Virus record (IMG/VR): IMGVR_UViG_3300016371_000006
Reading direction: 5' to 3' (one strand)
Length of the DNA stretch: 64,000 nucleotides
Source of the DNA: an uncultured virus (IMG/VR IMGVR_UViG_3300016371_000006)
Taxonomy: Duplodnaviria > Heunggongvirae > Uroviricota > Caudoviricetes
Part shown: piece by piece, positions 988 to 45,222 of the stretch
Layout: the number at the start of each line of letters is the position of its first letter
Position numbering within the stretch: the first letter of the stretch is position 1
Made by a program: the position numbers and the translations under genes
Notes under the pieces: model-generated
The model's database searches: none
What the model was told of the DNA's origin: nothing
What the model saw: only the letters and a program-made list of their open reading frames with translations

Positions 988-1686
988 TTAGCTGCCGAGT
1001 AGCTTGAACAGCGCCAGCTCATGCGGGGCCTTGATCACCCCGGCCGGCGCGGGTGGTTCATGGAACACCGCGAGCTTGGGGCCCAGGTTAAACGGCTCGG
1101 CCTCCAGGTCCACGGCCCGCTCGAAGTAGCCCTTCCAGGCGTGGTCGTACCCGTCGGGGTCCCACTCGAAGTTGTTGTCCGCACCCGGGTAGGTGGTGGT
1201 CAGCAGATATGAGCTCTCGGACAGCTTGAACTTGACGAGCACGAGCTCGACCAGCTCGTTGACCGGCAGGTGCTGCAGGAAGTGCCGACACAAGATCAGG
1301 TCGTAGCGTTTGATCTTCTGGACGGTGAGCAGGTTCTCCGGCGAGAATCCGATGGCGATGCGCGTCGGGTCGCCGGTGTAGTCGCCCGTCATCATCCGCT
1401 GGATGCAGATGTTGATGCGGCCCTGATCGACGTCCCAGCCGGTGTAGCTGATGTCGTTCAAATCGACCAGCCGCATCCAGTTCCAGTCGCCGCACGCGGC
1501 GTCCAGCACACGGCGAATATCGTACTTGCGGAAGATGGTGGGCAGCCACTGCCGCAGTTCCTCGGTGGAAGCCACCGTGGCCAGCGGGCCGTCGGCGGTT
1601 TCGGGCCGCTGCTCGAACAGCCGGGAATCCTCCCACAGCCCGCGCACCTCGCTCCAGGCGTTGGCCTGCTCCTCGACAAATCCCAT
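988..1686 (-). CDS. Class I SAM-dependent methyltransferase
   Basis: VLDAACGDWNWM motif I, YTGWDVD, DLILCRHFLQHL; RBS GGAGG upstream; paralog of 62122-63237. Confidence 0.8.
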   Translation of the reverse strand: MGFVEEQANAWSEVRGLWEDSRLFEQRPETADGPLATVASTEELRQWLPTIFRKYDIRRVLDAACGDWNWMRLVDLNDISYTGWDVDQGRINICIQRMMTGDYTGDPTRIAIGFSPENLLTVQKIKRYDLILCRHFLQHLPVNELVELVLVKFKLSESSYLLTTTYPGADNNFEWDPDGYDHAWKGYFERAVDLEAEPFNLGPKLAVFHEPPAPAGVIKAPHELALFKLLGS

Positions 1687-12373: not shown

Positions 12374-13129
12374 ATGCCAAGCAAGCCTCCCCCACCTAAG
12401 ACCATCACCCTGCCCGTCACCGAGATCGGTCAGGTCCAGTTCGGCATCTTGGGCATAAGTCCTTATATCCACAGCCGCATGTCAGAGAAGGCCAAGCACG
12501 AACTGCTGTTCCCCAAGGGCCGGCCCAACCAGGCCGAGAAGGCCGCCCGCCTCAAGCACGAGCCCGTCGAGGAGTTCCGGGCCTCCCCCTACACCCTCAA
12601 GGACGAGGACGCCCCGACCTACCTGGCGACCAAGGGCGACATGTTCAAGGCCACCATGCGCACCGCTGCCAAGGACCTGCCCGGCGTCAACGGCGAACAG
12701 ATCGGGCGCCTGGTCTGGGTGGAAGGGATGTACCTGCCGCTGTGGGGTAACGCGAAGCTGCACATGGCCGTCGTGCGCAGCGCCAACCAGCAGAAGACCC
12801 CCGACATCCGCACCCGCGCGATCAGCGAAAAATGGGCCACCGTCATCACGGTGCGTTTCGTCAAGCCGCTGATGAACGAAAAGATCGTCACCAACCTGCT
12901 GTCCACCGGCGGGCAGTCCGCCGGTGTCGGCGACTGGCGCACGGAAAAGGGCAAAGGCACCTTCGGTCAATTCATTCTGATTAACACAGATGAACTTATG
13001 GCACATGAAGTGATGAAAATGGACCGCGCCGTGCAAATCCAAGCAATGGAAGCCGCACAAGCTTTCGATGATGAAACTCAAGAAATGCTCACCTGGTTCG
13101 ACGCCGAACGTGAGGAGCGTGGCCGATGA
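12374..13129 (+). CDS. RAMP/Cas7-like RNA-binding protein, putative effector of the GGY-NN array
   Basis: N-terminal strand QFGILGISPYIH, helix FKATMRTAA, beta-hairpin DIRTRAISEKWATVITVRF, C-terminal Gly-rich loop GGQSAGVGDWRTEKGKGTFGQF. ATG follows GAAAGG. No cas1/cas2 or CRISPR in the window. Confidence 0.7.
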   Translation: MPSKPPPPKTITLPVTEIGQVQFGILGISPYIHSRMSEKAKHELLFPKGRPNQAEKAARLKHEPVEEFRASPYTLKDEDAPTYLATKGDMFKATMRTAAKDLPGVNGEQIGRLVWVEGMYLPLWGNAKLHMAVVRSANQQKTPDIRTRAISEKWATVITVRFVKPLMNEKIVTNLLSTGGQSAGVGDWRTEKGKGTFGQFILINTDELMAHEVMKMDRAVQIQAMEAAQAFDDETQEMLTWFDAEREERGR

Positions 13130-13848
13130 CCAGACCCGCGCTGGTGACAATGCCGGTCAGCAAGCTCATCGAAGACCTGTCGATCTACCCGCGAAGAATT
13201 GTCAACCAGAACCATGTCCGCGACCTGACATCAGCGTTGCAAGCAGCCGAAGGCGCAGATATATTCCCGCCGCTGACCGTGGACCGGCGCTCGAAGCGTA
13301 TTGTCGACGGCTTTCATCGGCGACGAGCTTTCCTAGCGGTACTCGGGCCGGACGCGGAAATTCAAGCCGAACTACGGACCTACCATTCCGAGACGGAACT
13401 GCTTCTCGACGCAGTACGACTCAACTGCGTTCACGGGCTGAATCTTTACGAGATCGAAAAGCGCAGGATTGTTCTGAAGCTGAGCGACCTCGGCGTCGAC
13501 GACGACGAGATCGCCGGCGCGCTGCATGTTCCGCCGGTCCGGGTGCAGCAGATCAAAGTCCGTGTAGCGACGGTCGTCGACGGGGATGGGGCGGTGCTAA
13601 GGCTGGAACCGCTGAAACGACCGCTGTTTCATTTCCAGGGCCGCACGATGAGCGAGGCCCAGGCCGCAGCGGGAACGTCATCACCAGGCGGCTCGTATAT
13701 GCAAACAATCAGAGCTCTGCAAGATGGGCTGCGGTATCGGTTACTGCCAACCGACGGACGCATCGACGCCGCTCTGCGGACGTTGGCCGCCCTGCTTGAT
13801 AACTACTTGGAAGGGGATGAGGAGGAAGGTATTGCCGCGTCGGTGTAA
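13126..13848 (+). CDS. ParB/Srx N-terminal-domain protein, accessory to the RAMP-like gene
   Basis: LIEDLSIYPR, FPPLTVD...IVDGFHRRRA, LNCVHGLNL followed by an HTH; ATGA overlap with the upstream gene. Confidence 0.8.
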   Translation: MTRPALVTMPVSKLIEDLSIYPRRIVNQNHVRDLTSALQAAEGADIFPPLTVDRRSKRIVDGFHRRRAFLAVLGPDAEIQAELRTYHSETELLLDAVRLNCVHGLNLYEIEKRRIVLKLSDLGVDDDEIAGALHVPPVRVQQIKVRVATVVDGDGAVLRLEPLKRPLFHFQGRTMSEAQAAAGTSSPGGSYMQTIRALQDGLRYRLLPTDGRIDAALRTLAALLDNYLEGDEEEGIAASV

Positions 13849-13865
13849 CAGACGCGGACGGCAAT

Positions 13866-15656
13866 GGTGCGGTTCGGTCAGATGGCGTAAGGCAGTTGCG
13901 GTCCGGTGGGGCACGGCTCGGTTAGGCATGGACAGTTACGGAATGGCCGGGTCAGTTCTGGTGAGGCGAGTTGCGGTCTGGTAAGGCGGGATCGGGTCTG
14001 GTCTGGTACGGCTGTTGAGGACGGTACGGCAAGGCATGGTGGGGTCGGGCGTGTTGCGGCGTGGTCGGGCGAGTTGCGGTCTGGCATGGCACGGTCGGGA
14101 ATGGTGGGGGTTAGGTGCGGCTGTTGAGGTGACGTCTGGTGCGGCGTGTCTAGGTGAGTTCGGGCAAGGTCGGGCGAGGTCTGGCGAGGTGCGGTCGGGT
14201 GCGGCCGTTGGGGTTGGGCATGGTGTGGTGAGGTGTGGCGCGGCGTGTTGCGTGAGACACGGTGCGGCAAGGCCCGGTGTGGAGGGTCAGGCAGGATAGG
14301 GCGGGGTTCGGTGCGGCCGTTGGGGAATGGTCCGGTTTGGTCGGGTTTGGTGCGGTCTGGAACGGCGAGTTCAGGCAAGGTTCGGTGCGGCTGTTGAGGC
14401 GAGTTCCGGCGCGGTTAGGCCTGGCGAGGTTTGGCCTGGCGAGGTATGGCCCGGTCGGGTGCGGCTGTTGGGGTTAGGTCGGGTTACGTGAGGTCTGGAG
14501 AGTTGAGGCATGGCGCGGTGCGGCATGGCATGGGATGGAGAGGTTAGGTCCGGTCGGGCGCGATAAGTTGCGGTGAGATGAGGCTGTTGTGGTGGGGTTG
14601 GGTTTGGCGAGTTACGGCCTGGTAAGGCGTGGTCGGGTCCGGTTGGGTCTGGTGAGGCCGTTGCGGTTAGTTCGGGTTTGGTGGGGTCCGGTCGGGTGTG
14701 GCGTGGCAAGGTCTGGCGAGGTCTGGAAGGCGAGTTGTGGTGAGGTGCGGCCGTTGCGGTCTGGTGGGGTGAGGCATGGCGGGGTCGGGAACGGCACGGC
14801 GTGGTTAGGCGAGTCTAGGTCTGGTGCGGTGAGGCTGTTGAGGCATGGTCCGGTCGGGTGAGGCGAGGTTAGGTGGGTTTGGGTCCGGTCTGGTGTGGCG
14901 TGGCTTGGCTAGGTTTGGCGCGGTGAGGCTGGGTGAGGTGCGGTTCGGCTGTTGCGGTGTGGCATGTTGAGGACGGGTACGGCAGGGCATGGTGGGGCCG
15001 GGCACGTCAAGGAGTGGATAGGTGGGCTCTGGCATGGCGAGGCGAGTTGCGGTGCGGCAGTTTTGGCATGTTAAGGCGTGGCACGGTGGGGACGGGTCAG
15101 GTGTGGAGGGCTAGGCAAGGTTGGGTGAGGTGCGGCTGTTGTGGTCTGGCACGTTGCGGTGTGGCCCGGCGTGGTCGGGCAAGGTCCGGTAAGGCACGGC
15201 AGGTACGGCGGGGTATGGTCCGGTGCGGTCGGCACGGTTGGGTCGGGTTAGTTTGGGCGCGGCAGGGTGTGGCGGGGCAAGGTGGGGTCCGGTAAGGTGC
15301 GGCAGCTAAGGTCCGGTTGGGTTCGGTCGGGTTGGGCGGGGAGAGGTACGGCAAGATCCGGTGCGGCCCGGCGAGGTTTGGCGGGTTCCGGTGAGGTGCG
15401 GCTGCTGCGGTAAGGCATGGTGAGGTTCGGCAAGGCGAGGTCGGGTGAGGTCTGGTCGGGTGCGGTGAGGCATGGTCGGGTAAGGTGCGGCAGCTGCGGT
15501 CTGGCGCGTTCAGGAGAGGTCGGGTTAGGTCGGGTGGGGTCTGTTGGGGCATGTTCCGGCTAGGCGTGGCAAGGTGCGGCAGTTGAGGCGCGGTCTGGTG
15601 AGGTCCGGTTTGGTTAGTTGGGGCTCGGTGGGGCACGGCACGGCGGGGTGAGGTAC
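13866..15656 (+). ncRNA. Array of GGY-NN pentamer repeats, 19 segments; putative guide-RNA array
   Basis: 5-nt periodicity (GG[T/C]NN, occasionally GTT/GGA/GAT). 4-nt GGC[TAC] delimiters, usually in the context GGTGC-GGCN-GTTG, at 13891, 14010, 14119, 14203, 14315, 14389, 14463, 14582, 14656, 14749, 14833, 14947, 15056, 15134, 15198, 15301, 15400, 15489 and 15578. 15 of 19 segment lengths are exactly 5n+4. No credible ORF. Confidence 0.85.
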
Positions 15657-15658
15657 GG

Positions 15659-15692
15659 CCTCGGGGCACTGGCGGTTGCTGGTGCCCCGAGG
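15659..15692. terminator. Hairpin closing the array, between convergent transcription units
   Basis: CCTCGGGGCAC...GTGCCCCGAGG perfect 11-bp stem. Confidence 0.7.
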
Positions 15693-15693
15693 A

Positions 15694-16581
15694 TTAAACC
15701 TCGAACGGTAGCGCGGCGTTGAGCAGCCGAGTACGCAAGCTCATGTCGAGATAGGCGCTGCTGATGTCAATCCCGACATAACGTCTGCCGGCGCGCAAAG
15801 CGGCCGCGCCACTGGTGCCCGAACCGCTGAACGGATCTAATGTCACCCCATTGGGTCGGCAGCCGGCCTGGATGCACCGCAGCGGCAATGCGATGGGAAA
15901 GGTGGCGAAGTGCGCTTGCGGGAATTTCTCGACGGGAATACTCCAGCAGTCGCCTGGATTCTTGCCGGCTTCATTGAGGGTGCGCGCCCCGGCGGCGATG
16001 GCGCCGTGCGGATTCCCCCCCGGGGTGTAGGCCCGCCCGGATCTACCGTCGCCCGAGTAGGGTTTGCGCTCGCTGCGCTGGCTGCGGTTTACTGAGATCG
16101 GGCTGTGTGGTGTTCTTATCGCGTCTAGATCGAACCAATACTTCGGTTGTTTGACGAGTAGGAAGACCTGTTCGGAGCGTACGGCCAGCCGGTCGGTTAC
16201 CGATTCAGGCATGGTGTTTTCTTTTAGCCAGGTAATCGAGTTGCGTAAAATCCAGCCGTCATTTTGCAGTGCGAATGCGACGCGCCAGGGTATGCCGAGC
16301 AGGTTTTTCGTTGCGCTGTAGGAATCACCCAGCACAATCCAGCAGGTTCCGTCGCCGGCCAGCACGCGGCGCAGTTCGGCGAACAGGGCCCGCAGGTGTT
16401 CGACGTATTCGGCGGGCGTGTCCTCGAGCCCGTACTGCCCGTCGCTGTCGTAGTCGCGCAGGCCGTAGTAGGGCGGGCTGGTGACAATGCAGTCCACGCT
16501 GTCGCCGGGCAGGGTGCGCGCGACCTCGAGCGCGTCGCCGTGGTGCAGCGTGATCTGGTCGTCGGTGTAGTGGACGCTCAT
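15694..16581 (-). CDS. N4-C/N6-A DNA methyltransferase (beta class)
   Basis: TSPPY (motif IV) at the N-terminus, HFATFP, LDPFSGSGTSG (motif I) at the C-terminus. Confidence 0.9.
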   Translation of the reverse strand: MSVHYTDDQITLHHGDALEVARTLPGDSVDCIVTSPPYYGLRDYDSDGQYGLEDTPAEYVEHLRALFAELRRVLAGDGTCWIVLGDSYSATKNLLGIPWRVAFALQNDGWILRNSITWLKENTMPESVTDRLAVRSEQVFLLVKQPKYWFDLDAIRTPHSPISVNRSQRSERKPYSGDGRSGRAYTPGGNPHGAIAAGARTLNEAGKNPGDCWSIPVEKFPQAHFATFPIALPLRCIQAGCRPNGVTLDPFSGSGTSGAAALRAGRRYVGIDISSAYLDMSLRTRLLNAALPFEV

Positions 16582-17240
16582 ATACCGGCCATCAACTCCC
16601 AGTAGTTGAACTTGGTGCCGAGCGCGTCGACGATCGTCACCGTCTGTTCGGCGTCGAGGTTCAGGCATCGGCTGGCGTAGATGCGGGCGTATTTGGGGAT
16701 GCGGATTTCGTTTCGGACGAACGCGCATCCGCGGCCGGTGAGCCGCCACCAGCCGACCCGCGAGCTACCGTCCTCGCGTTCGCCGGGCATCTGTTCGATC
16801 AGGCCCCAGTACCGTGCAATGCACATCTCCCCGCTGCGTGAGACGTGGATGGGTTCACGCCCGGTGGAGTCGATGTAGGGCAGGTAGACCCAATCGTCGC
16901 CGGCCTTGCGGTACATCGCGATCAGCACGCGGGCGATGCCGGCGTTAATCTTGCGCCGATACACCTTGGCGAACTGGCCGCACAACGGACAGGTGACGCC
17001 GTCGTCGACGTTATCGCGCAGCCACGCCTGCGCCTCCCGTAGTGTGGTGTCGGGTCGGAGGTTGAACATGGTGAACGTGATCGGGTCGATCAACTCCTCA
17101 ACCCAGTCGTCGTCCTCTTTGTCGTCGTCGGGCTGATCGAACAGATCGCCCTGGCCGTCATCGCGCGGCGCCCAGGAGTAGCACCTACACGACGGGCAGT
17201 AGCCGACGTGCGGTTCGTGCGGGCATTGCGGACATGTCAC
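16578..17240 (-). CDS. Hypothetical protein
   Basis: CPLCGQFAKVYRR...ARYWGLIE; operon overlap. Confidence 0.65.
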   Translation of the reverse strand: MTCPQCPHEPHVGYCPSCRCYSWAPRDDGQGDLFDQPDDDKEDDDWVEELIDPITFTMFNLRPDTTLREAQAWLRDNVDDGVTCPLCGQFAKVYRRKINAGIARVLIAMYRKAGDDWVYLPYIDSTGREPIHVSRSGEMCIARYWGLIEQMPGEREDGSSRVGWWRLTGRGCAFVRNEIRIPKYARIYASRCLNLDAEQTVTIVDALGTKFNYWELMAGI

Positions 17241-17680
17241 ACCAGAACCTCCTGCGGCTGGGGCTGTTTGAGCATCCGCACCCGGCGCTGCGGCCGCGGG
17301 AACAGGCCGTCCATGTCTTTGGGTTCCCGTTTGCCGCGCGGCGGATGCGCCGGCGGCCCACTGAACGGGTCGTCATCACCGCCGCCGCCGGGTGGCTTGA
17401 ACTCGATGCAGTGATACCGGTCCATCGGGTAGGGCTGGCCGTCCTTCCACTGGTCGAGCCACTCGATCGGCGTCTTGCCCATCAGCGCGCACAGCAAAAG
17501 CGGGCAGCCGCCGCCCGGATTGGTCTTGCGTAGGCCAGCCTCGTAACGCTGCCACGCCACCTCGTCGGGTTGCTGACACGGCGCGAAGCACCAATTCTCC
17601 ATCCAGCCGTAGCCTTCGGTGCCATTGGAGAAGGGTGATCCGTCGCGGGCGCTGGCCTCGATCTCCTTATACGAGCGCAT
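17237..17680 (-). CDS. Hypothetical protein
   Basis: PFSNGTEG..W...WC motif common in phage proteins. Confidence 0.65.
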   Translation of the reverse strand: MRSYKEIEASARDGSPFSNGTEGYGWMENWCFAPCQQPDEVAWQRYEAGLRKTNPGGGCPLLLCALMGKTPIEWLDQWKDGQPYPMDRYHCIEFKPPGGGGDDDPFSGPPAHPPRGKREPKDMDGLFPRPQRRVRMLKQPQPQEVLV

Positions 17681-17821
17681 CGCTGGCTTCTTCGGCGGCC
17701 GCGGCGAAGTTCACCACGTCGCCCAGCTCGGCGACGGCCTGCGCGTCCAGGGTGCCCGGATCGCCGCCCACGGACACGCCGACGGTGAATCCGTTGACCT
17801 CAAAGTCGAAGTGGCTCTTGG

Positions 17822-18073
17822 TCATGACGGCACCACCACGACGGGCTCGTGGCCGTACTCGCAGCCCTGCGGGCAGGGGCACGGCATCTTGTACGTGCGG
17901 CTGAACTTGTGGCCGTTGCTGCACTCGAAGTAGTCGCTGTGTCGGTTCGGGTCGTGCCGGTGGTACTGGCCGTCCTCGTCGTAGTAGGCCTCAAACCCCA
18001 TACAGGTGGCGGTCGAGCCCTTGCTGTAGAGCCTGCTCGTGACGCCTTCGGCGACGCACTGATCGCACTTCAC
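17822..18073 (-). CDS. Small Cys-rich hypothetical protein
   Basis: YYDEDGQYHRHDPN, CSNGH. Confidence 0.6.
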   Translation of the reverse strand: MKCDQCVAEGVTSRLYSKGSTATCMGFEAYYDEDGQYHRHDPNRHSDYFECSNGHKFSRTYKMPCPCPQGCEYGHEPVVVVPS

Positions 18074-18459
18074 TTCTCGCCCTCCTCGTCACCGTCCTCG
18101 TCGGCCTTGGTGGGCTGCTCGGGCTTGGGCGGCTCGGGCTCGGTGACCTGATCGAAGATCACCTTGAGGTCGTCCTCCATCTCGAGTGGCAGCACCGTGT
18201 CGCCGTTACGCTGTTCCCAGGAGCGGCGGATCAGCCGCTCAGCTTCTTTCATGTCGGCGTCGCGGATCACCTCGGCCCGGCGGATACGCAGCACCGGGAT
18301 GCATTCACCGCTGTCGACGTGGGTGACCAGCTTGGTGGTGTCGACGAGTACCACCAGGGCGTGGATCTTCTCCGGCTCACGGATCAGCGACTTGACGATC
18401 GGACCCAGGCCGTTGGCGTCGCCGCGCGGCAGCGCGCCGGACAGGGAGATTTCGGTCAT
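18070..18459 (-). CDS. Hypothetical protein
   Basis: ATG after an AAAGGAGA RBS. Confidence 0.6.
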   Translation of the reverse strand: MTEISLSGALPRGDANGLGPIVKSLIREPEKIHALVVLVDTTKLVTHVDSGECIPVLRIRRAEVIRDADMKEAERLIRRSWEQRNGDTVLPLEMEDDLKVIFDQVTEPEPPKPEQPTKADEDGDEEGEK

Positions 18460-18518
18460 GGTTCTATGGTTCTCCTTTCGTGGGAAGGTGTCCACCCGCG
18501 GACACCGATCGTCTGACG

Positions 18519-18951
18519 TTACTGCGTGGGGCCGACAGGCTTCGCCCAATCGCCATTCGTGTCGTGTCGGCGCCGGCCGTTGCGGATGCTGTCCCAGGTA
18601 TTCGCGCTGCGGGTATCCCACCGCAAGTTGCCGATGCAATTATTGAGCCGGACATCATCGTGGTGGCATGCTTCCATCCCGGTTGGGCATGGCCCGAACC
18701 ACGCCTCCAGAACAACGATGTGAAGATCGACGGTGCGCTTCATTCCCGGCTGCCGTAAGCCGATCTTCAGATAGCCGCTCCGTTTGTCGATCCACGGCGC
18801 TATCGGCTTGCCCCGTAGCCGTCGCGGGTTTGCACCGCCCCACCTGTTCGCGGTAACGACGATCCGATCGACGGACCGGACGCGGCCATCACTGCTTACT
18901 TCGTAGTAGCCCTCGAAGCCGAGGACCTCGCGCCATTCAACTGAGATCATC
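18519..18951 (-). CDS. NUMOD4 + HNH homing endonuclease
   Basis: EWREVLGFEGYYEVSSDGRVRSVDR...ACHHDD...NLRWDTRSAN; start uncertain. Confidence 0.85.
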
Positions 18952-19148
18952 AGCGGAACATTCGGGACAAAGCAGTTCAGGGAAGGTGTCGTCGATCCAG
19001 CGCAGCCACCACCCGTCCACCGTGGCCACCCGCTGACGGGCCTCGTCGGCCTCGGCGAAGGTGTGGTACTCCGTGTCAGGCTCAGCGCGCACCCGGCAGC
19101 GGTCACACATGATCGTGTACCGGGCGGTGATGTCGATGCCGCCGGCCA

Positions 19149-19559
19149 TCATCTGCCGAGCCGTGATTGCAGCAGCGCCAGTCCCCCAACAGGCTCCCAT
19201 CGAAGATTCGCTAATTTGTTGTTGGCCGGGTCGTCGTCGATGTTACGGGCGTCGTAGCCGGGCGGCTGCGCGCGGCCGGTGAACGCTTCGAGCACCAGGC
19301 GCTTCACCGGGAACTGGATGTAGTCGTTCTCGATCCACAGGTTGACCGCGCGGGTGCCGTCGTTGGGCCGCACGCGCGGGGAGAGAATCCTGCCCTTCAC
19401 GGTGCGGATGCACGGCACGCCGTCGCGGCCGGTGCGCCCGGCGACCTGGCGGGTGACCGATCGGATGCGGCCCATATCGGAGGCTTGGTAGGCGGCCGAG
19501 AAGCGCGGATCAAGAACCGGGCGCCACTGCTCGACGACCATCTCAACCTGCCCGATCAA
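19149..19559 (-). CDS. NUMOD4/HNH-like protein (degenerate HNH)
   Basis: YQASDMGRIRS...RLVLEAF...NIDDDPANNKLANLRW. Confidence 0.75.
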   Translation of the reverse strand: MIGQVEMVVEQWRPVLDPRFSAAYQASDMGRIRSVTRQVAGRTGRDGVPCIRTVKGRILSPRVRPNDGTRAVNLWIENDYIQFPVKRLVLEAFTGRAQPPGYDARNIDDDPANNKLANLRWEPVGGLALLQSRLGR

Positions 19560-20076
19560 GGTCGTTATGAGTGAACAGCTCGTTTCGCTTGGCGGTCACT
19601 GCGGCATCAGCAGCGGCCAGCGAAGCGAAACGGCCGACCCAATACTTCCGACCGTGGTGTCTTACCTCTGCCCGCCAGCAGTTTCTGTGACTGTCCCAGA
19701 TGACGCCGCGCATCCCCGACGTGTTGTTGGCATTAAGTCCGGCGCGGTTCTCCTGGTTCTGTTTATTGCTGACGCGACGTAGATGCTGAGGATTCACGCA
19801 GACAAGGTTGTGACAGCGGTGGTCGATCTGGACGCCTTTGATCGGTCCGACACAGAGCTCATACGAAAGTCGATGCGCGAACACGCCTCGATGATTGCCA
19901 ATCGTCAGCTGGCCGTAGCCTGTGCGCTTTGAGATCCCACCAGTCCATATCCAGCACCTGGTGCCGAGCTGCGGGTGAACGGGTCCTTTCTTGTCAACCT
20001 TGGCCCAGAACCATTCGCCGATATCAGCATCGAGCGGGAGGTATCGCCCATGTCCGTCGCGGCGCCGCTCCATCAC
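19543..20076 (-). CDS. HNH endonuclease with AP2-like domain
   Basis: CWIWTG, AHRLSY, DHRCHNLVCVNPQHL, SGMRGV. Confidence 0.85.
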   Translation of the reverse strand: MMERRRDGHGRYLPLDADIGEWFWAKVDKKGPVHPQLGTRCWIWTGGISKRTGYGQLTIGNHRGVFAHRLSYELCVGPIKGVQIDHRCHNLVCVNPQHLRRVSNKQNQENRAGLNANNTSGMRGVIWDSHRNCWRAEVRHHGRKYWVGRFASLAAADAAVTAKRNELFTHNDLDRAG

Positions 20077-20189
20077 GTTGACAGGCTAACCACGCGGCAC
20101 GTATTTCCCGTTACCCGACACGCCGAAAAGTTGTTGCCCTCCTGGGTGGAACGGCGTATACAAGACAGGTTGTCGTTTGAGAACTTCAT

Positions 20190-20327
20190 AGGCGCGAGCC
20201 GGACGGAACCGTCGGTTATCTAAATTGGTAATTCAGGTTCGAGTCCTGATCACGGTCCTCCTCGGAAGCCGTGATTACAGAGCGCCGGCTTCGGCCGGTA
20301 CCCGGCGTCCAATCTTCGTTCGCGCCT
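20190..20327 (+). ncRNA. Y RNA-like gene 1 (tRNA-like T arm; YrlA-like)
   Basis: 5' GGCGCGAGCCGGA pairs with 3' TTCGTTCGCGCC; T arm TCAGG-TTCGAGT-CCTGA; upstream of Ro60. Confidence 0.75.
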
Positions 20328-20336
20328 CTAGCTTTC

Positions 20337-20490
20337 GGCTCCGAGCCGGACGCTGGATCGGTTATCTTTCTGCAAAAGTGAGAGCGCGGGTTCGAATCCC
20401 GCCACGGCTGCTGGGGCAGTCGTGTGGACGAGTGGCCTAAGTCGCATGGGCGTAAGCCCTTTCCGATCTGCAACCCCTTCGTTCGGAGTC
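20337..20490 (+). ncRNA. Y RNA-like gene 2 (YrlA-like tRNA mimic)
   Basis: CTCCGAGCCGGA...TTCGTTCGGAG stem; T arm GCGGG-TTCGAAT-CCCGC, closed acceptor-like stem, D-arm-like GGACGAGTGGCCTAAGTC. Confidence 0.8.
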
Positions 20491-20499
20491 TTCACGTCC

Positions 20500-20660
20500 G
20501 GTCTGAGCCGGATGAGATTCGGTTATCTGTCGCCAGGTCGAGCGGACCCAAAACGCTAGGAGGACAGGTGACACGTACCTCCGGTCGGCACCCACATCAG
20601 TCACGGGTTCCGGCTGCCGGGCAACCGGTGTCAGCCGGATTTCGTTTCTTCGTTCAGACC
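20500..20660 (+). ncRNA. Y RNA-like gene 3
   Basis: GGTCTGAGCCGGA...TTCGTTCAGACC stem with the shared TCGGTTATCT motif. Confidence 0.7.
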
Positions 20661-20669
20661 ACCCGCGTC

Positions 20670-20739
20670 GGCACGAGCCGGATGTGGCCGGTTACCTAAC
20701 CTTTCCTGTTAACCCGGTCGCGGTTGCTTCGTTCGTGCT
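20670..20739 (+). ncRNA. Y RNA-like gene 4 (short)
   Basis: GCACGAGCCGGA...CGGTTACCT...TTCGTTCGTGC. Confidence 0.65.
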
Positions 20740-20750
20740 TTAAAACTGCT

Positions 20751-20822
20751 GGGGCGAGCCGGATTTCGAGTCGGTTACCTTGTGGGAAAGTATCCCCGGT
20801 TCGAGACTTTTTCGTTCGCCCC
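20751..20822 (+). ncRNA. Y RNA-like gene 5 (short)
   Basis: GGGGCGAGCCGGA...TCGGTTACCT...TTCGTTCGCCCC. Confidence 0.65.
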
Positions 20823-20843
20823 GCCTAAGAAAAGGAGGAACAC

Positions 20844-22544
20844 ATGGTTGATGTTTTGAAGGGCTTCTCCACCCGGGCGACTCCGCAGAGCCAGCCCGCC
20901 GGCGCCGCGACGGTGCGCAACGCCGCCGGCGGCCATGTGTTCGCGATCGACGACATGGCCCGGCTGCGCCGATTCCTGACGATCGGGACCTCCGGCGGCA
21001 CGTACTACACCAGCGCGCCGGAGCTCACGCGCGAGAACGCCGAAGTCGTGCTGCGGTTGGCGCAGAGCAATCCCTTCGCCCTGGTCGATGAGATCGTCGC
21101 GATCTCCACCGCGGGGCGCGCGCCCAAGGCCAACCCGGCGATCTTCGCGCTGGCGATCGCCGCGGCCGAGGGCGCCAACGACCCCGAGCGGGGATCGGGC
21201 CGTAAGTATGCGCTGTCGAAGTTGCCCGCGGTGTGTCGCACCGGGACGCATATGTACCTGTTCGCCGGGTACGTCGAGCAGTTCCGCGGCTGGGGTCGCG
21301 GCCTGAAGCGCGCCGTCGGCGAGTGGTACAACGGCCGGTCGGTCGACAAGTTGGCCTACCAGATCCTCAAGTACCGCCAGCGCGAGGGCTGGCGGCACGC
21401 CGACCTGCTGGCGCTCTCCCATCCCGCGCCGGACACCGCGATGCGAGACAACCTCTACCGCTATATCACCGACACCATGACCGGGCGCGACCCCGAGCAC
21501 GTCGAGCGGATGGCGCCCCACCGCGAGCACTACCAGGTCTTCCCGGCTGACAAGATTCCGGCGCTGCCTGATCTGATCGGTGCCTACGAGCAGGTGCAGA
21601 ACGCCACCGCACTGCAGGCGGTCAACCTGATCGCCGAGCACGACCTGTCCTGGGAGATGCTGCCCGACAAGCTGCTGGGCGAGGCGCTGGTGTGGGAGGC
21701 GCTGATCGGCAAGGGGATGCCGCAGACCGCGCTGATGCGCCAGCTGCCCCGGCTGACCCGGCTGGGCCTGACCACCGGCAAGACCGGCAACCTGATCGCC
21801 GAGCAGTTGCAGGACACGCAGAAGCTCAAGCTGGGCCGAGTGCACCCGATCAACGTGCTGGTCGCGCAGCGCACCTACGCCAGCGGCCGCAGCGCGCGGC
21901 GCGGTGACTCCACCTGGGAGCCGACGCGCAAGATCACCGACGCGCTCGACGCGGCGTTCTACAACGCCTACGGCGCGGTTGAGCCGTCGGGCAAGTCGGT
22001 GCTGCTGGCCTGCGACGTGTCGGGCTCGATGGGCGCCTCGGCCGGGGGCCTGCCGATCACCTGCCGGGAGGTGTGCGCGGCGCTGTCGCTAGTGAGCCTG
22101 AACGTCGAGCGCGATGCCGACATCATCGGGTTCTCCGACGGGCGCAGCCACGGCGGCTACGGGATGTACTCCAACAGCGTGGCCTCGCGGCTGGACATCA
22201 GCGCGCGGCGGCGCCTCGACGACGTGTGCTCCTACATGGCGGGCCTGAACTTCGGGCGCACGGATTGCTCTTTGCCAATGCTATGGGCGATGAAGAACAA
22301 GCTGGACTTCTCAGCAATTCAGGTGTACACGGACAATGAGACTTGGTATGGAAGCGTTCATCCTTGGCAAGCTCTTGACCAGTACCGGAACATGGTTGGT
22401 CACGACGTCAGCCTAGCGGTGATCGCGATGACAGCAACCAGAGGAAGCATCGCAAACCCCGACGATCCTCGCCAGATGGACGTTGCTGGCTTCGACGTTT
22501 CGGTTCCGCAAGTCCTATCCGATTTCGCTGCGTGTCGTATCTGA
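20844..22544 (+). CDS. rsr: Ro60/TROVE-domain RNA-binding protein with vWA domain
   Basis: NAAGG, RLRRFLTIGTSGGTYY, GWGRGLKRAV.EWY, KYRQREGWRH.DLL.LSHP, DVSGSM, TDNETW, MDVAGFD; RBS AGGAGG. Confidence 0.92.
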   Translation: MVDVLKGFSTRATPQSQPAGAATVRNAAGGHVFAIDDMARLRRFLTIGTSGGTYYTSAPELTRENAEVVLRLAQSNPFALVDEIVAISTAGRAPKANPAIFALAIAAAEGANDPERGSGRKYALSKLPAVCRTGTHMYLFAGYVEQFRGWGRGLKRAVGEWYNGRSVDKLAYQILKYRQREGWRHADLLALSHPAPDTAMRDNLYRYITDTMTGRDPEHVERMAPHREHYQVFPADKIPALPDLIGAYEQVQNATALQAVNLIAEHDLSWEMLPDKLLGEALVWEALIGKGMPQTALMRQLPRLTRLGLTTGKTGNLIAEQLQDTQKLKLGRVHPINVLVAQRTYASGRSARRGDSTWEPTRKITDALDAAFYNAYGAVEPSGKSVLLACDVSGSMGASAGGLPITCREVCAALSLVSLNVERDADIIGFSDGRSHGGYGMYSNSVASRLDISARRRLDDVCSYMAGLNFGRTDCSLPMLWAMKNKLDFSAIQVYTDNETWYGSVHPWQALDQYRNMVGHDVSLAVIAMTATRGSIANPDDPRQMDVAGFDVSVPQVLSDFAACRI

Positions 22545-22571: not shown

Positions 22572-22661
22572 GCCGTGGTGTGGTGCGTTATGGCACGGCG
22601 CGGTACGGCGGGACGTGGTTCGGTATGGCGCGTCGAGGTCCGGCAAGGTGAGTTACGGTAA
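22572..22661 (+). ncRNA. Stand-alone GGY-NN guide-like unit (18 pentamers)
   Basis: gccgt ggtgt ggtgc gttat ggcac ggcgc ggtac ggcgg gacgt ggttc ggtat ggcgc gtcga ggtcc ggcaa ggtga gttac ggtaa; preceded by TATCCT (possible -10, 22560-22565) and followed by a hairpin. Confidence 0.8.
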
Positions 22662-35525: not shown

Positions 35526-36107
35526 GGCTTCCTCTTTCCTTCGTGGGATTCGTGGGTTGGAGTGTCCGTGCGGTGGACACCTACTGCTGGTCGGCTCGCT
35601 GCTTACGCCGGCGCTCGCGCTGGTACTCGCGCGCCCACCGGCTGCACTCCGGGCAGCCGCACCGGTACAGGGTGTAGCCGACGCCGGTGCCGTGCTTGTC
35701 GGGCGGGCACTCCGTGTTGTGCGTGCGCCGGTTCGACTCCTGCGTCTTGCGGTGCTTGCGGGCGCGGCGGCACTCGGGCGCGCCGCAGGTCACCCGCGGC
35801 CGCCGCCCGGGCGCGGTGGGGTCGTCCTCGTACTCCTTGCCGCACACTGTGCAGATCAACGTTTCCATCACGGCTCCTTTCGTTGGTGGGAACCCACCGC
35901 GGGCGCGAGAGAGAGGCACGCCCGCGGTGGGTGGCTTGTTACGCGGCTTGTCGCCGCTGCATCATGAGCAGCTTCATCCGCTCGATGGGCGTCATTCGGG
36001 TCAACGCCTGCTGGTAGGTTTGCCACAGCTTGAAGGTCAGCTCGGTATGCTTATCCATCCGTGTAATTCCTTTCGTGGGATTTGGCATTTCTCAACTTCT
36101 AACTACT

Positions 36108-36136
36108 ATTCTACCAGATTTTGCACCTTATGTCAA
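36108..36136 (-). promoter_or_regulatory. Conserved early promoter TTGACA-17-TAGAAT
   Basis: Near-identical copies at 43228-43256, 46981-47009, 48137-48165 and 48548-48576; variants at 49532-49560, 49941-49968 and 51142-51171. Confidence 0.85.
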
Positions 36137-36175
36137 ATGGAACAAAACCTGACAGAGATACCAGCTGGGCAGCGA

Positions 36176-37831
36176 CTACTGCTCCTTGAGGTAGGCGTCA
36201 TACACCTTGTCGGCCTTCTTCTTGCCGGTCATCACCAGCTCGATGTCGGCCGGCTCGTAGCCGTTGGCCACCAGGAACTCCAGGTAGGGCTTGGAGACGC
36301 GGTCCTGCGACCACTTGTCCTTGCGCCAGGCGTCCTTGGGCGTGCGGGATTCGAACGCGCCCAGCACCAGGCCCAGCGTGATCACCTGCGCGCGGGCGTC
36401 CCCGCCCTCGGGCAGGTCGGCGACCAGCTTGGCGACGCCGCGAGTCACCTTGCCGATCTGGTACTGGTAGCCCGACCCCTCGACGTGCTCGGCGCCGAGC
36501 AGCTCCGCGGTGACCTCGTCGGCCTTGTAGTCCGACAGCAGGTGCGGGTCGCCCGACAGGGAGGCGGCGACGAAGATGGCCGCGCCCTTGGGCGGCGTCT
36601 TGCGCGACAGCAGGCTCTTGACGAACTGCCGGCGCACGTTCAGCGCCGCCTCGCCCAGCTTGTTGAGCGCGAGCACCTTGCGCCGCTCCCGCTTCTCGGC
36701 CTCGGCCTTGTCGTCGACGTAGACCGGCCCGATGTCGTCGGTCCGGTCGACCGTGCCGGTCGAATCGGAATTTCCCCCCTCGGGGAAACCCTGCGCGGCC
36801 TGTCCGGAGAACTTCGCGAACCGCTCGTTGACGGTCAGCCCGGCACCGGCGACGTCGAGGCAGTAGTAGAACTCCGGCACGAACGCCTCGGTTTCGTTCA
36901 CCTGGTCGGCGTGCAGCTTGCCTTCCTCCGGCGTGGCGTCCGGGTCGTCCTGGGTGTCCCAGTCCACCTGATCCTCGCCGACCTCCTCGCCGGTGTCGGC
37001 GTTGGTGAGCATGGTCTCCTCCCACAGCAGCACCGCCCAGTGCTTGGGGTCGACGATGTCGGCCTCGGTGAGTTCCCTGCCGTCCTTGAGCAGGAAACCC
37101 CACTCCACGCAGTCGGGGTCCCACGTCCACGTCGGGCGCTCGTCGAGCACGGTGAAGCCCTTGTCGCGCCACTGCTGCTCGGCCTCGCGCAGCGCCTTGG
37201 CGTCGTCGCGTTCGCCGCGCAGCTGCTCCACGGTGTACTCGAAGTTGCGCGTGCCCGCGGTGCGCAGCAGGCGCTCCGTCGCGCCCTCGTCGCCCTCGAA
37301 CTCGGCGAGCACCGCGGCCTCGGTCAGCGTCAGCTGCCCCTGGGCCAGGGCGTCGATCGCGGCCGGGGAAGCGGCCACCGCCTGGGAGTCGGCCACCCGC
37401 TGCTTGCTCACCGACAGCGACTTGGCGACCTTGGTGGGCGAGAGCCCGACGTCGAGCAACTGCTGGATGCCGTGCACCCGCTGCACCTGGGTGAGCGTGG
37501 AGCGGTGGTCGTTTTCCACCAGCTGCTCGATGGTGCGCCGGGTGGTGTCCTCCCAGCCCTCGCCGATGACGTAGACCGGGATGGTTGGCAGGCCGGCCTC
37601 GCGTGCGGCCAGCGTGCGCCGCTGCCCGGTGCGTACCCGCACTGACCCGTCCTGGGTGCGAACCGCGGTGATCGGCACCAGTACCCCGTTCTCCTTGATG
37701 CTGGCGATGAACTGCTTGGTCAGCGCCGGATCGTCACGGACGTTGCCGTCGGTTTCCAGCGCGTTCGGATCCAGGTGCTCGAGCGTTCCCTGTCCGAACT
37801 CGGTCTGTTCTGCGTTACTCATGTGATCCAT
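36176..37831 (-). CDS. ParB-like protein (long, plasmid/ICE type)
   Basis: NVR...SIKENGVLVPI...VRTGQRRTLAA...QLVENDHRSTL followed by an HTH. Confidence 0.85.
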   Translation of the reverse strand: MDHMSNAEQTEFGQGTLEHLDPNALETDGNVRDDPALTKQFIASIKENGVLVPITAVRTQDGSVRVRTGQRRTLAAREAGLPTIPVYVIGEGWEDTTRRTIEQLVENDHRSTLTQVQRVHGIQQLLDVGLSPTKVAKSLSVSKQRVADSQAVAASPAAIDALAQGQLTLTEAAVLAEFEGDEGATERLLRTAGTRNFEYTVEQLRGERDDAKALREAEQQWRDKGFTVLDERPTWTWDPDCVEWGFLLKDGRELTEADIVDPKHWAVLLWEETMLTNADTGEEVGEDQVDWDTQDDPDATPEEGKLHADQVNETEAFVPEFYYCLDVAGAGLTVNERFAKFSGQAAQGFPEGGNSDSTGTVDRTDDIGPVYVDDKAEAEKRERRKVLALNKLGEAALNVRRQFVKSLLSRKTPPKGAAIFVAASLSGDPHLLSDYKADEVTAELLGAEHVEGSGYQYQIGKVTRGVAKLVADLPEGGDARAQVITLGLVLGAFESRTPKDAWRKDKWSQDRVSKPYLEFLVANGYEPADIELVMTGKKKADKVYDAYLKEQ

Positions 37832-38565
37832 CTTTCTGTGTGGGTGTTTCCTTCGTGGGGTGTCCGTCGGCGGACACGTCTTTGTGCTGGTCGAGTCGGT
37901 TGATCGCCTCCTCGAACCTGCGGTCCTCGTTCGGGCCGTGATGCCAGGCGCGCGGGCGCTTGCCGCCCTTGCCCTTCTGGTCCTTGGGGCTCATAACCGC
38001 GGCCCTCCGTTGCACCAGGCATCGGGCAGGAAGCCGCCTTTGGACAGCCAGCCGTCGAGCGCCTCGATGTAATCGACGAGCAGGTCGAACCGCTCAGCCC
38101 GGTCAAACGCGGTAAGCGAGGGGCCGTACTGGGGTACCTGGATTAGCTCTCGTAGCTGTTTGAGCGTCTCGTTGGGGTCCATCTCAGTCTCCTTTCAGCC
38201 GTTTCAGCCGGCCCAGCAGCAGGTACTGGACCAGATCAACGAATGTGGTGCCGATGTGGCCGACGACCAGCGTCACACCATCGGAGTCGGTGTGAACGAG
38301 GTCGGCGGTCCCATCGGTGTTGCGATCGCCCAACTCCCAGCCGGGCAGCAGCCCGGCCCGGTAGGTTTCGCCTAGGTTGCCCATGACTCCGCCAACTCAC
38401 GGTCGATCAGCGCGATCTTGAGCCGCGCCAGCTCGCGCTCCGCGTCGGTGACGAGGATCAGCCACAGCCACGGCTCCCACTGCGCGCGGTAGGCCAGCAA
38501 GGCTTCCTTGATTACGTCCATTTCGTTCCTTTCTCGTGCATGGCATCAGATCGGCAACCAGCGTT

Positions 38566-38907
38566 CTACCCCTTCGGATGCCAACTTCGTCCTCCATCGT
38601 GGCTGTGGATACCTTGGGTCAGCGCCTTCGTGCTGACCTTGCGACCGGCCATCTGCTCGGCCTGGATGAGTGCGGTCTTGACCGCCTCCGACCCGTTCTG
38701 CATCAACCGGTTGAAGATGCAAACGTCGGTCATCCGGCCGCGCTGCGCTTGTTCGAGCCCGAGGAAGGTGATGGCGCCCTGTGGGCCGACCTTGAGCTTG
38801 ATCTTGCGCTTGGCGATCAGCCGGTCGATGTCGGTCAGCGCCTTCTTGACCTCGGCCCGGCGCTGTTCCTCGGTCTGCTGCGGCTCGCGTTGTGAGAAGC
38901 AAGGCAT
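38566..38907 (-). CDS. Hypothetical protein of the AAA module
   Basis: 114 aa, VGPQGAITF...GIHSHDGG. Confidence 0.6.
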   Translation of the reverse strand: MPCFSQREPQQTEEQRRAEVKKALTDIDRLIAKRKIKLKVGPQGAITFLGLEQAQRGRMTDVCIFNRLMQNGSEAVKTALIQAEQMAGRKVSTKALTQGIHSHDGGRSWHPKG

Positions 38908-38914
38908 TTTTCGT

Positions 38915-39646
38915 TCACACCACCATGTCCAGCGCGCGGCCGCCACCACTGCTCGGCGGGGTGTAGGTGCCCGGAGCGTCGATGTCGAGGAACTGGGTGC
39001 GCGCGCTGCGGATCAGCCGCACCGTGTTGCGCTCCATCTCGGAGGCGACCTCGTTACCCGCCTTGACGATGCGGGTGCAGGCCGCCCGCGCGGTGCGGAT
39101 CACCAGGTCGAGCGTGTCGCTGGACTGGCCGTCGAGCACCTGGTTGTAGTTGACCGCCTTGTCCATGATGTCGCGGACCTTCTTGACATCCAGCTCGGCC
39201 AGCCTCTGTGCGGCCTCGTCGAGGAACTCCTCGATGTCGGAGAAGATCGCCTTGGTGGCCGCGACGTCGTCCTGCTGGATCTCGGTGCAGATGACGTTGA
39301 ACTTGACGTGGTTGCGCACCGCCGTGGCGTTGAAGTCGGCGACCCACTCGCGGGCCTCCTCGATCCGCATTTCCAGCTCGGCCTTGTCCTTCAGCGGGCA
39401 CATCAGGCCGTGCTCGCTGCGCGTGCAGAGCCCTCGGATGTGGTCCTTGGCCCGATCGCGAACCTTCTCAGCGCGGTCCTGCTCGGCGGGGTCGGCGATG
39501 GTTTTCGTCGTCTCCACCACGGAGCGCTCCGCACCGCTAGCGGTCAGGTGCGCGTACTCGATCGTGTCCTTGTCGTAGCGGACGTTGCCGACGTTCTTGG
39601 TCTTGAGGGTGACCAGAACGCACGCCTTCATTCGGGTGATTGTCAT
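38915..39646 (-). CDS. Hypothetical helical protein of the AAA module
   Basis: 244 codons after AAGGAGA. Confidence 0.65.
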   Translation of the reverse strand: MTITRMKACVLVTLKTKNVGNVRYDKDTIEYAHLTASGAERSVVETTKTIADPAEQDRAEKVRDRAKDHIRGLCTRSEHGLMCPLKDKAELEMRIEEAREWVADFNATAVRNHVKFNVICTEIQQDDVAATKAIFSDIEEFLDEAAQRLAELDVKKVRDIMDKAVNYNQVLDGQSSDTLDLVIRTARAACTRIVKAGNEVASEMERNTVRLIRSARTQFLDIDAPGTYTPPSSGGGRALDMVV

Positions 39647-39713
39647 GATTTTCTCCTTATCTCGTGGGTTGGTGGTGGGGTGTCCATCGGCGGACACCCC
39701 ACCGGGTGGGGTG

Positions 39714-41399: not shown

Positions 41400-41454
41400 T
41401 TCGTTCTCCTTTTCGTGGGTTGTGTTGTGAGTGTCCATCGAATGGACACCCGGT

Positions 41455-41831
41455 TCATCGGCGCTGTTCTTCCTTGAAGGACAGCGTTGCCCCGCCGCCC
41501 GTGACGGGGCTGCGGAACTCGTGACGCACGCTGAATTGCTGCGTGGTCCCGTAGACGTTGTTGCCGCCGAGGTAGTCGGCGTGGCGCCAGTTCCAGTAGG
41601 TTTCGACGAAGCCGCACGCGCGCAGCTCGCGCCACGCGCCGGCGATGTCGGTGCCCCACTGCTCGGTCTGCCCGTACATATGCAGCGTGACATCCCAGTA
41701 CCGCGGCAGCCCGCCCGGCCCGGGGAGCGCGTGACGCGCCTCGAAGTCGAACCGGCACACGCCGCAGCCCGCCACGTACTCGGTGTGCTGCGCGTGGTCG
41801 CGGGTGAGCACCGGGATCGCCGCCGCGGTCA
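41455..41831 (-). CDS. Hypothetical protein
   Basis: Overlapping operon; start approximate. Confidence 0.45.
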
Positions 41832-43227: not shown

Positions 43228-43256
43228 ATTCTACCAGGTTTTGCACCTTATGTCAA
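43228..43256 (-). promoter_or_regulatory. Conserved early promoter TTGACA-17-TAGAAT
   Basis: Copy of the 36108-36136 element. Confidence 0.85.
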
Positions 43257-43625
43257 ATGGAGTAATGCGATATCATAACTGCACCCAGCACCAGCCGGAC
43301 AGACCATACAGCGGTGCGCCGTCGTGCATCCCGCACACCTTCCACACGTCCTTGTCGTGCTCGCCGTCGTCGTAGACCAGGGCGCCGTCGCCCTCGACGA
43401 CGCCCTCGGGCGACCAGGTTCCGTTCGGGTCGATCAGCGCCCAGGTCGCGACGTAGCGCCTGAACTCGCCGGCCGTCACGATCGGCACATGCCACCCGCA
43501 CCAGCCGTGCTCATCCACCCGCACGGCGTGCAGCGCCAGCATGGGATAGCGGTTGGCGTCGTCGGTGTGGTTCTCGTCCAGGATGAAGGTCAAGTCGGTG
43601 AGCGCAGACCAGCCGCCGGTGTTCG

Positions 43626-44333: not shown

Positions 44334-44679
44334 GGCCCGAACTCCTCGTCGGCGCTCGGGCGGTGCCAGGACCATTCGCGTTTCCACGTCGGACCCCTGG
44401 CCGAGAGCATCTTGATGGCGCAGTCCACCATGTAGAGCGCCTTGTGAACGTCGCCGCCCAGCGTGGTGTCGGTCAGCTCGGCGCGCACGTCAGACAGCGC
44501 GAGCGCGATCTGGCGTTCGCGCTCGGCCAGCTCGCGGCGACGCGCGACGGCGGATTCGCCGCCCAGCATCTCCACCCAGGAGGCGACACCGTGGTCGATC
44601 ACCGCCAGCACCTGGTCGCGCTCGAGAACTTCGCCGGCCTTGACCCGCTTGCGCAGCGCCAGCAGCTTGTCGCGGCCCA

Positions 44680-45132: not shown

Positions 45133-45222
45133 CGTGATAATTCCTTTCGTGGGATTTGGTGCCGGGGGGTGTCCGCTGGCGGACACCCCCCGGGTAGGAG
45201 GGTAAACCCGGCTACCGACGGG

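What the first reader, a model, noticed from the sequence alone, without database searches (positions are those of the whole stretch)
13681..22544. Guide-adjacent genes appear recoded for self-immunity, resembling homing or gene-drive logic
Seen: in all three self-similar cases (ParB-like, MTase, Ro60) the near-target lies within ~250 nt of its guide. Each uses codons rare in this high-GC genome (TTA, AGA, AGT) or a Ser family switch (AGC) at mismatch positions. By eye, the Ro60 gene from ~22260 onward and the 3' part of the MTase gene shift to more A/T-ending codons. Established: only Leu, Arg and Ser permit synonymous change at codon positions 1-2, so these are the only silent escapes from a wobble-skipping code; free-standing homing endonucleases similarly travel with resistant alleles. 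Inference: guide plus resistant gene end spread together by disfavouring sensitive alleles in co-infection, or guides are templated from neighbouring genes.
Basis: inference. Interest (0 to 1): 0.75.

Follow-up and report, generated by a model that had tools for sequence, protein, structure and literature searches.

The report
Phage guide RNAs beside escaped genes
A soil phage keeps RNA guides of its CRISPR-like VIPR silencer right next to three of its own genes; the guides spell those genes as related phages write them while its own copies have changed at the matching spots, a layout like that of selfish homing genes, though actual spreading is untested.

Summary
The array and the lone guide belong to a VIPR system (Cas7-like Vipr, ParB-like Vap; known since 2026). 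The three near-targets are real: 3 of 23 guide tracts have a significant self near-match, each 155-256 nt from its guide. 'Recoding' is mostly wrong: 12 of 15 mismatched codons change the amino acid, 3 are silent. The guides spell family consensus where the phage's own genes leave it (10 of 34 conserved residues inside footprints vs 18 of 443 outside, p=5e-6). The GC3 drops are real, but the Ro60 one is shared by two relatives without a guide there, so this guide did not cause it; one relative has an HNH-like gene in the guide's slot. Elsewhere, lone guides resemble their neighbour gene in 8-9 of 99 cases against 3 of 792 swapped controls. Best reading: kin-targeting guides tightly linked to a resistant allele. 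No sensitive natural DNA allele was found and Vap shows no nuclease fold, so homing itself is not shown.

The parts
12374..13129 (+). vipr gene (251 aa, Cas7/Csm3-like RAMP); GC3 falls 0.88>0.40 from 12965
   Evidence: Model pLDDT 78.9, top Foldseek hits are chains of Csm/type VII CRISPR complexes, best E 1.8e-4, TM about 0.4; change point
13126..13848 (+). vap gene, ParB/Noc/KorB-like accessory protein (240 aa); no nuclease fold seen
   Evidence: PHROG ParB-like E 2e-12; Foldseek Noc/ParB/KorB, best E 5e-7
13681..13731 (+). near-target of the first long guide, in vap (26/34); 5 non-synonymous and 1 silent mismatched codons
13856..15662 (+). staggered GGY/NN guide array, about 22-24 phased tracts
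13895..14009 (+). guide spelling the vap family consensus plus two residues (M, Q) found together only in this phage's vap
15582..15656 (+). last guide of the array, spelling the DPF-GSGTTG motif of the convergent methyltransferase
15659..15692 (+). 15-bp hairpin closing the array, between array and MTase stop
   Evidence: z -3.8
15694..16581 (-). N6/N4 DNA methyltransferase; GC3 0.98>0.70 from 16410
   Evidence: Pfam N6_N4_Mtase E 1.7e-47
15808..15840 (-). near-target in the MTase (18/22 core); 2 non-synonymous, 1 silent mismatched codons
18519..20076 (-). three HNH/NUMOD4/AP2 endonuclease genes between the two guide loci (context; role not tested)
20844..22544 (+). Ro60 (TROVE + vWA) gene
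22263..22544 (+). A/T-shifted 3' tract of Ro60 (GC3 0.56), shared with relatives L001 and L003
22419..22466 (+). near-target in Ro60 (25/32); 5 non-synonymous, 1 silent mismatched codons, including Gly>Arg at a residue that is Gly in 36 of 37 close homologues
22572..22661 (+). lone guide starting 27 nt after the Ro60 stop, in the slot that holds an HNH-like gene in relative L003
22664..22696 (+). 15-bp hairpin closing the lone guide
   Evidence: z -3.4

Best explanation
These are VIPR guides aimed at the alleles that related phages carry of a gene this phage also has (vap, methyltransferase, Ro60). Vipr loaded with such a guide binds the rival's copy (binding and silencing are shown for other VIPR systems; inferred here). 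The phage's own copy has gathered 3-6 changed codons in the footprint, mostly amino-acid changes even at conserved residues, plus silent Arg/Leu/Ser box switches, which lower self-binding (inferred, not measured). Each guide sits within about 250 nt of its resistant site so that crossing-over with a relative rarely joins the guide to a sensitive allele: guide and resistant gene end are inherited as one driver-plus-resistance unit. The A/T-rich tracts mark long-contested gene ends that are older than at least the Ro60 guide.
For: Only 3 of 23 tracts have a self near-match and all three are adjacent. Departures from family consensus: 10 of 34 conserved columns inside footprints vs 18 of 443 outside, p=5e-6; per gene p 0.004 (Ro60), 0.008 (vap), 0.19 (MTase). 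The guide keeps the consensus at those sites: Ro60 G 36/37, V 34/37, D 32/37; vap Q 27/27, T 25/27, A 25/27, A 23/27; MTase T 39/40. Lone guides elsewhere resemble the adjacent gene end: 9 of 99 near vs 0 of 84 far, 8 of 99 vs 3 of 792 swapped; 7 of 58 vs 0 of 43 in the loci of the pattern scan alone (p 0.018). Neighbours include RecA, clamp loader, AAA_24, primase-polymerase, capsid. In L057 an Arg invariant in 52 of 52 homologues is written AGG where the guide reads CG.
Against: No natural DNA allele matching well was found: 0 exact hits for two 10-unit cores in IMG/VR; the best of 13 other Ro60 genes scores 27/32 and the closest relatives 26/32 against 25/32 for self; a relative's MTase ties the own score (14). 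Array guides show no adjacency effect in the pattern-scan set (2 of 237 vs 3 of 194), so this window's two array-edge cases are unusual, and about 90% of lone guides show none. The trimmed MTase core is 82% matched, near what the papers call a target. Resistance and binding were not measured.
Confidence: 0.62

Rival explanations
1. True RNA-guided homing: the Vipr filament (with the ParB-like clamp, or an HNH enzyme acting in trans) blocks or breaks the rival genome at the target, and recombinational repair copies the resistant gene end and the guide into it, as free-standing homing endonucleases do. This is a stronger form of the best explanation.
For: The lone guide fills the slot that an HNH-like gene fills in L003; guides start at or just after stop codons (L201 twice; L087; L057); the neighbours are conserved replication and capsid genes; vap is 56% identical between near-identical flanks (vipr 233/251, MTase 253/295), as after module exchange; the low-GC3 block 12965-16410 is centred on vap plus array.
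Against: Vap folds as ParB/Noc/KorB with no nuclease domain seen; the VIPR systems tested in the papers repress transcription; L001 has the A/T-rich end with nothing inserted after Ro60; no guide-less variant of this phage was seen in 4 runs of contigs; the HNH call for the L003 gene is weak (E 1e-6 to 9e-4, no Pfam hit).
Confidence: 0.25
2. Self-regulation: partial matches are the purpose, damping the phage's own vap, MTase and Ro60.
For: Self matches of 76-82% in trimmed cores are close to the 80% cut used for targets; the vap guide carries two residues private to this phage; relatives match hardly better at DNA level.
Against: Mismatches are directional: at 8 of the 12 non-synonymous codons the guide equals a residue conserved in at least 85% of homologues and the gene has left it; costly changes such as Gly>Arg would not be needed to weaken a guide that could itself mutate.
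Confidence: 0.12
3. Guides are written from neighbouring DNA by an unknown acquisition step, start as self-targeting, and the gene then escapes; adjacency is a trace of origin, not of function.
For: Private M and Q residues are shared by the vap guide and this vap only (1 match among all held proteins of 200-260 aa); I saw no acquisition mechanism in the parts of the preprints read.
Against: No templating enzyme or intermediate was seen; 20 of 23 tracts have no self near-match; private residues are equally explained by targeting close kin.
Confidence: 0.12
4. Historical by-product: HNH homing had already diversified these gene ends; guides against common alleles landed in the same intergenic slots and the own alleles were resistant beforehand.
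For: The A/T-rich Ro60 end and the Ser AGY codon are shared with guide-free L001 (15 identical A/T-ending codons among 74 identical residues); three HNH genes lie nearby.
Against: The Gly>Arg, Val>Ile changes are absent from L001 and L003 and confined to the footprint, which is the only place in Ro60 with 3 departures in 16 codons.
Confidence: 0.12

Closest known systems
VIPR systems (bioRxiv 10.64898/2026.04.26.720920; staggered arrays, fig. S18 legend)
   Same: RAMP-fold Vipr plus one vap plus GGY/NN guides, 1-nt skip aligned to wobble positions, some guides aimed at other VIPR systems.
   Different: The paper reports no self hit at 80% or more and, in the parts read and the term search (self, adjacent, homing, recod), no guides placed beside their target gene's own homologue and no escape changes in own alleles. 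The type (I-VII) could not be assigned; figures and data files were not visible.
Solo vrRNAs of SUSP1-family phages and F5 satellites (bioRxiv 10.64898/2026.10.15.759431)
   Same: Stand-alone guides; guides against relatives' vipr and vrRNAs, found where vipr-vap1 was deleted; self-match lower than non-self match for vrRNA-targeting guides.
   Different: There the targeted gene is absent from the carrier or is a vrRNA; here the carrier keeps a protein-coding homologue next to the guide, altered in the footprint, and has its own vipr 10 kb away.
Free-standing homing endonucleases of T-even phages: intronless homing and marker exclusion (PMC2988022; PMC10448857)
   Same: Intergenic element beside a conserved gene, target hundreds of bases away in the rival allele; slot shared with an HNH-like gene in a relative.
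   Different: Specificity is in a roughly 90-nt RNA, the effector acts in trans, no nuclease is evident, and biased inheritance has not been shown.
TnpB gene drive of IS200/605 elements in plasmids (PMC11870625)
   Same: RNA-guided bias against element-free copies of a related replicon.
   Different: TnpB cuts the empty insertion site and comes with a transposase; here the site is inside the neighbour gene and immunity comes from codon changes.

Membership tests
VIPR | Stand-alone RAMP (Cas7-like) gene | tested here: met
   Foldseek top hits are chains of Csm/type VII complexes, best E 1.8e-4; glycine-rich C-terminal loop conserved in 16 aligned relatives. No direct comparison with a named Vipr was possible (one search found none).
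VIPR | GGY/NN tandem guide tracts beside the gene | tested here: met
VIPR | 1-nt skip code aligned to wobble | tested here: met
   Three in-frame near-targets under skip 1; in other loci 9 of 341 at p<=0.01 for skip 1 vs 1 and 0 of 341 for skips 0 and 2
VIPR | Accessory vap gene | tested here: met
   ParB-like gene overlapping the vipr stop; its homologues lie beside GGY arrays in many loci
VIPR | Guides expressed, bound by Vipr, repress targets | not testable with these tools
   No RNA holder listed
Free-standing homing endonuclease (intronless homing) | Element encodes a site-specific endonuclease | tested here: not met
   The lone guide encodes no protein; Vap matches ParB/Noc/KorB. Nuclease activity of a ParB/Srx domain is not excluded by a fold match.
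Free-standing homing endonuclease (intronless homing) | Intergenic position beside the targeted gene, target tens to hundreds of bases away | tested here: met
   155-256 nt; same geometry in 16 tracts of other loci
Free-standing homing endonuclease (intronless homing) | Own allele resistant, rival allele sensitive | tested here: inconclusive
   Footprint-specific departures from consensus but no strongly matching DNA allele found
Free-standing homing endonuclease (intronless homing) | Filled and empty versions of the same site in relatives | tested here: met
   After Ro60: guide (window), HNH-like gene (L003), nothing with different downstream genes (L001)
Free-standing homing endonuclease (intronless homing) | Biased inheritance with co-conversion in mixed infection | not testable with these tools
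   Needs a cross

The most novel reading that the evidence does not exclude
A roughly 90-nt guide RNA gene is itself a homing element: parked at a gene end, it borrows Vipr in trans, disables the rival allele without a nuclease of its own and is copied with the resistant gene end, replacing HNH homing endonucleases in the same slots. This would be a protein-free natural gene drive of phages that pushes conserved proteins off their consensus.
Probability: 0.25. Interest if true: 0.9.

Novelty: new variant of a known kind. Interest (0 to 1): 0.68.

Why it matters
It gives a reason why VIPR guides are scattered singly through phage genomes, shows that the wobble-skipping code can be escaped and at what price (amino-acid changes at conserved residues, Arg/Ser/Leu box switches at invariant ones), and yields ready pairs of guide, resistant allele and consensus allele with which mismatch tolerance, self/non-self discrimination and possible drive can be tested. 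It also bears on the open question of how VIPR guides arise.

Tried and rejected
Exact pattern scans of IMG/VR for decoded 10-unit cores of the Ro60 and vap guides: 0 and 0; array boundary motif: 0. Window guides against the two related phage records (L001, L003, L288-L293): only the Ro60 guide significant, 1 of 23. Cross-locus search of 298 unique guides against held loci up to L113: nothing beyond the window's Ro60 and vap guides stood above the shuffled null. First self-scans of L006-L047 over whole loci showed no adjacent near-target; the signal appeared only with a local, in-frame test, and the amino-acid score was introduced after three outside cases had been seen, hence the separate count on L145 onward. 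The 3 swapped-control hits were inspected and look like chance. vipr absent from records G001 and G002, but they are 39% and 71% complete. No RNA holder listed. Contigs of 4 soil runs showed the phage without differences in the long pieces and no joint skipping the array or lone guide; contigs cannot show absence. Rfam and ARAGORN gave nothing usable. No whole genome is held; a family-wide genome pattern search could not be run. 'Silent recoding explains the A/T-rich ends' rejected: the ends are far longer than the footprints and shared with relatives. GC3 lower near than far in 13 of 16 cases is not counted as support because gene ends of the outside genes had no control.
Full report
What is there. 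The window is part of a high-GC soil phage (its proteins occur unchanged on 105-111 contigs, the longest 117,852 bp; 24 listed runs are all soil, any may be the source; nearest annotated Ro60 genes are in mycobacteriophages). At 12374-15662 lies a VIPR locus: a Cas7-like gene, a ParB/Noc/KorB-like vap and a staggered GGY/NN array, followed by a convergent methyltransferase; a lone guide follows Ro60 at 22572. Array and lone guide each end in a 15-bp hairpin. The code (NN pairs, one target base skipped) is from bioRxiv 10.64898/2026.04.26.720920 (read: parts 1-3 and 6 of 6, section 27, term passages).

The near-targets. Of 23 tracts searched against 31 kb of the window, 3 have a best match with p<0.05, and these lie 216, 256 and 155 nt from their guide, in frame, in vap, MTase and Ro60. 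Within +/-500 nt each reaches p=0.005. Trimmed matches are 26/34, 18/22 and 25/32. Against the whole window two of them only tie the best of 60 shuffles, so adjacency carries much of the evidence.

Recoding versus amino-acid escape. Of 15 mismatched codons 12 change the residue and 3 are silent. Compared with homologues, the guide keeps the consensus and the gene leaves it: Ro60 V>I (34 of 37 V), G>R (36 of 37), D>N (32 of 37); vap A>S, T>G (25 of 27 each), Q>A (27 of 27), A>G (23 of 27); MTase T>S (39 of 40). Departures from columns at least 85% conserved are 10 of 34 in footprints and 18 of 443 elsewhere (p=5e-6; 8 of 29 vs 11 of 382 at 90%); MTase alone is not significant (p 0.19 and 0.06). 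Two of the ten are not escapes from a consensus-reading guide: vap L>Q is shared by the guide, and MTase V>T matches neither. Homologues used: 35 of 120 Ro60, 26 of 85 vap, 39 of 120 MTase hits, the closest by rank after length filters. The vap guide is a mosaic: consensus at the escape sites but M and Q as in this phage alone, so it was aimed at close kin or at this lineage's earlier allele. The best fit among 84 vap sequences is P0148, probably from a kin contig whose vipr is 233/251 and MTase 253/295 identical while vap is 135/240 (same contig inferred from equal length). Silent box switches: 4 of 10 opportunities in the window (expected 1.9-2.4, p 0.09-0.19), 7 of 14 outside (p 0.02), 11 of 24 pooled (p 0.005-0.01) for guides reading CG, CT or TC; 17 of 32 vs 11.5 over all such sites.

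Composition. Change points: Ro60 22263, vipr 12965, MTase 16410; none in vap. Among 27 long ORFs only vipr, vap and Ro60 have GC3 below 0.6 in their last 60 codons. But L001 (82% identical protein) drops at codon 473 (window: 474) and L003 at 491; neither shows a guide or vipr in the records held (incomplete records), and 11 more distant Ro60 genes show no comparable drop. The tract is therefore older than, or independent of, this guide. In L003 a 175-aa gene with weak HNH matches overlaps the Ro60 stop, and the sequence beyond it is homologous to the sequence beyond the guide: guide and putative endonuclease are alternative fillings of one slot.

Generality. With an in-frame, amino-acid-aware score and 400 shuffles, p<=0.005 was reached by 16 of 559 testable near windows (450 nt) vs 3 of 515 far; lone guides 9 of 99 vs 0 of 84 (p 0.003). 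A rerun gave 8 of 99 vs 3 of 792 when guides were swapped among GC-matched loci (p 2e-6); in the pattern-scan loci alone lone guides gave 7 of 58 vs 0 of 43 (p 0.018), array guides 2 of 237 vs 3 of 194, and all tracts together were not significant (9 of 295 vs 3 of 237, p 0.14). With plain base scoring, skip 1 near gave 9 of 341 at p<=0.01 vs 1 of 229 far, 1 of 341 skip 0, 0 of 341 skip 2. Whole-tract matches of the 16 hits are 42-75%, below the papers' 80% cut, which explains why such cases went unreported. Neighbours include RecA (L087, L201; these two phages look related), clamp loader, AAA_24, primase-polymerase, protease-capsid, capsid, a glycosyltransferase and a vap. L057 repeats the Ro60 picture: A/T-richer 3' end, guide just after the stop, and AGG at an Arg invariant in 52 of 52 homologues. 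L201 has two lone guides, each beginning at the stop codon of the gene it resembles.

Mechanism. Shown here: anatomy, directional mismatches, recurrence, shared slot. Taken from papers: VIPR binds DNA and represses transcription. Inferred: kin alleles are bound, own alleles are spared, linkage keeps guide and resistance together. Not shown: biased inheritance. Because gene products are shared in a co-infected cell, a benefit would have to act in cis on the rival genome (block of transcription or replication), which is also what could start recombination; this is reasoning, not evidence.

Literature. Four VIPR-related preprints are in the library. 10.64898/2026.10.15.759431 (parts 1-3 of 8 and passages) describes solo guides and lower self scores for vrRNA-targeting guides; 10.64898/2026.04.26.720927 and 10.64898/2026.10.21.760802 were seen as passages. 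PMC2988022 and PMC10448857 passages give intronless homing and marker exclusion; PMC11870625 abstract gives TnpB drive. Searches listed no paper on guides linked to resistant neighbour alleles; unread parts and closed supplements may bear on this. Earlier AI notes of this scan on other genomes report kin-allele targeting, two with parts that later fell; they are not independent support.

Verdict. A real feature of a known system with an arrangement that seems undescribed: new variant, interest 0.68; homing proper remains a one-in-four possibility.

Noticed in passing
window 20190-20830: Non-coding stretch before Ro60 with five units starting GAGCCGGA followed by CGGTTA-C, plus a tRNA-like T-loop near 20390; also present before Ro60 in L001 and L003. 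Looks like a cluster of Y-RNA-like genes (label recalled; Rfam and ARAGORN give no hit).
   Followed up: partly
window 12965-13129: The vipr 3' end has the sharpest GC3 drop (0.88>0.40) though no guide against it was found in this window; it may be a target of rivals' guides.
   Followed up: partly
window 36084-51176: Six copies of a 58-nt A/T-rich intergenic repeat ending in CACCTTATGTCAAATGGA (family D5), promoter- or operator-like.
   Followed up: no
window 1749-60079: 14 copies of a palindrome GTGTCC-N3-6-GGACAC, a likely operator.
   Followed up: no
window 988-1686 (-) and 62122-63237 (+): Two paralogous genes in inverted orientation (arms I1, I2).
   Followed up: no
window 18519-20076: Three tandem HNH/NUMOD4/AP2 genes; the middle one looks truncated and has host-like GC3.
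   Followed up: no
L104 5873-5957: Guide just upstream of its own vap spelling that gene's N-terminal YPR motif, with AGG at the Arg: a second vap-directed case.
   Followed up: partly
L204 2179-2283 (-): Array-edge guide resembling an adjacent resolvase-like reading (label recalled from the motif), score 16, p 0.005, missed by the ORF filter.
   Followed up: no
Mycobacterium phages Saal, Quico and others; Gordonia phages: 30 records of cultured actinophages carry distant vipr homologues (24-34%) annotated as hypothetical; possible tractable models.
   Followed up: no
runs X1, X16, X18, X22: Co-occurring contigs about 80-85% alike to the Ro60 3' part, and a 20-kb contig of a related phage, lie in the same samples; their letters at the footprint were not shown.
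   Followed up: no
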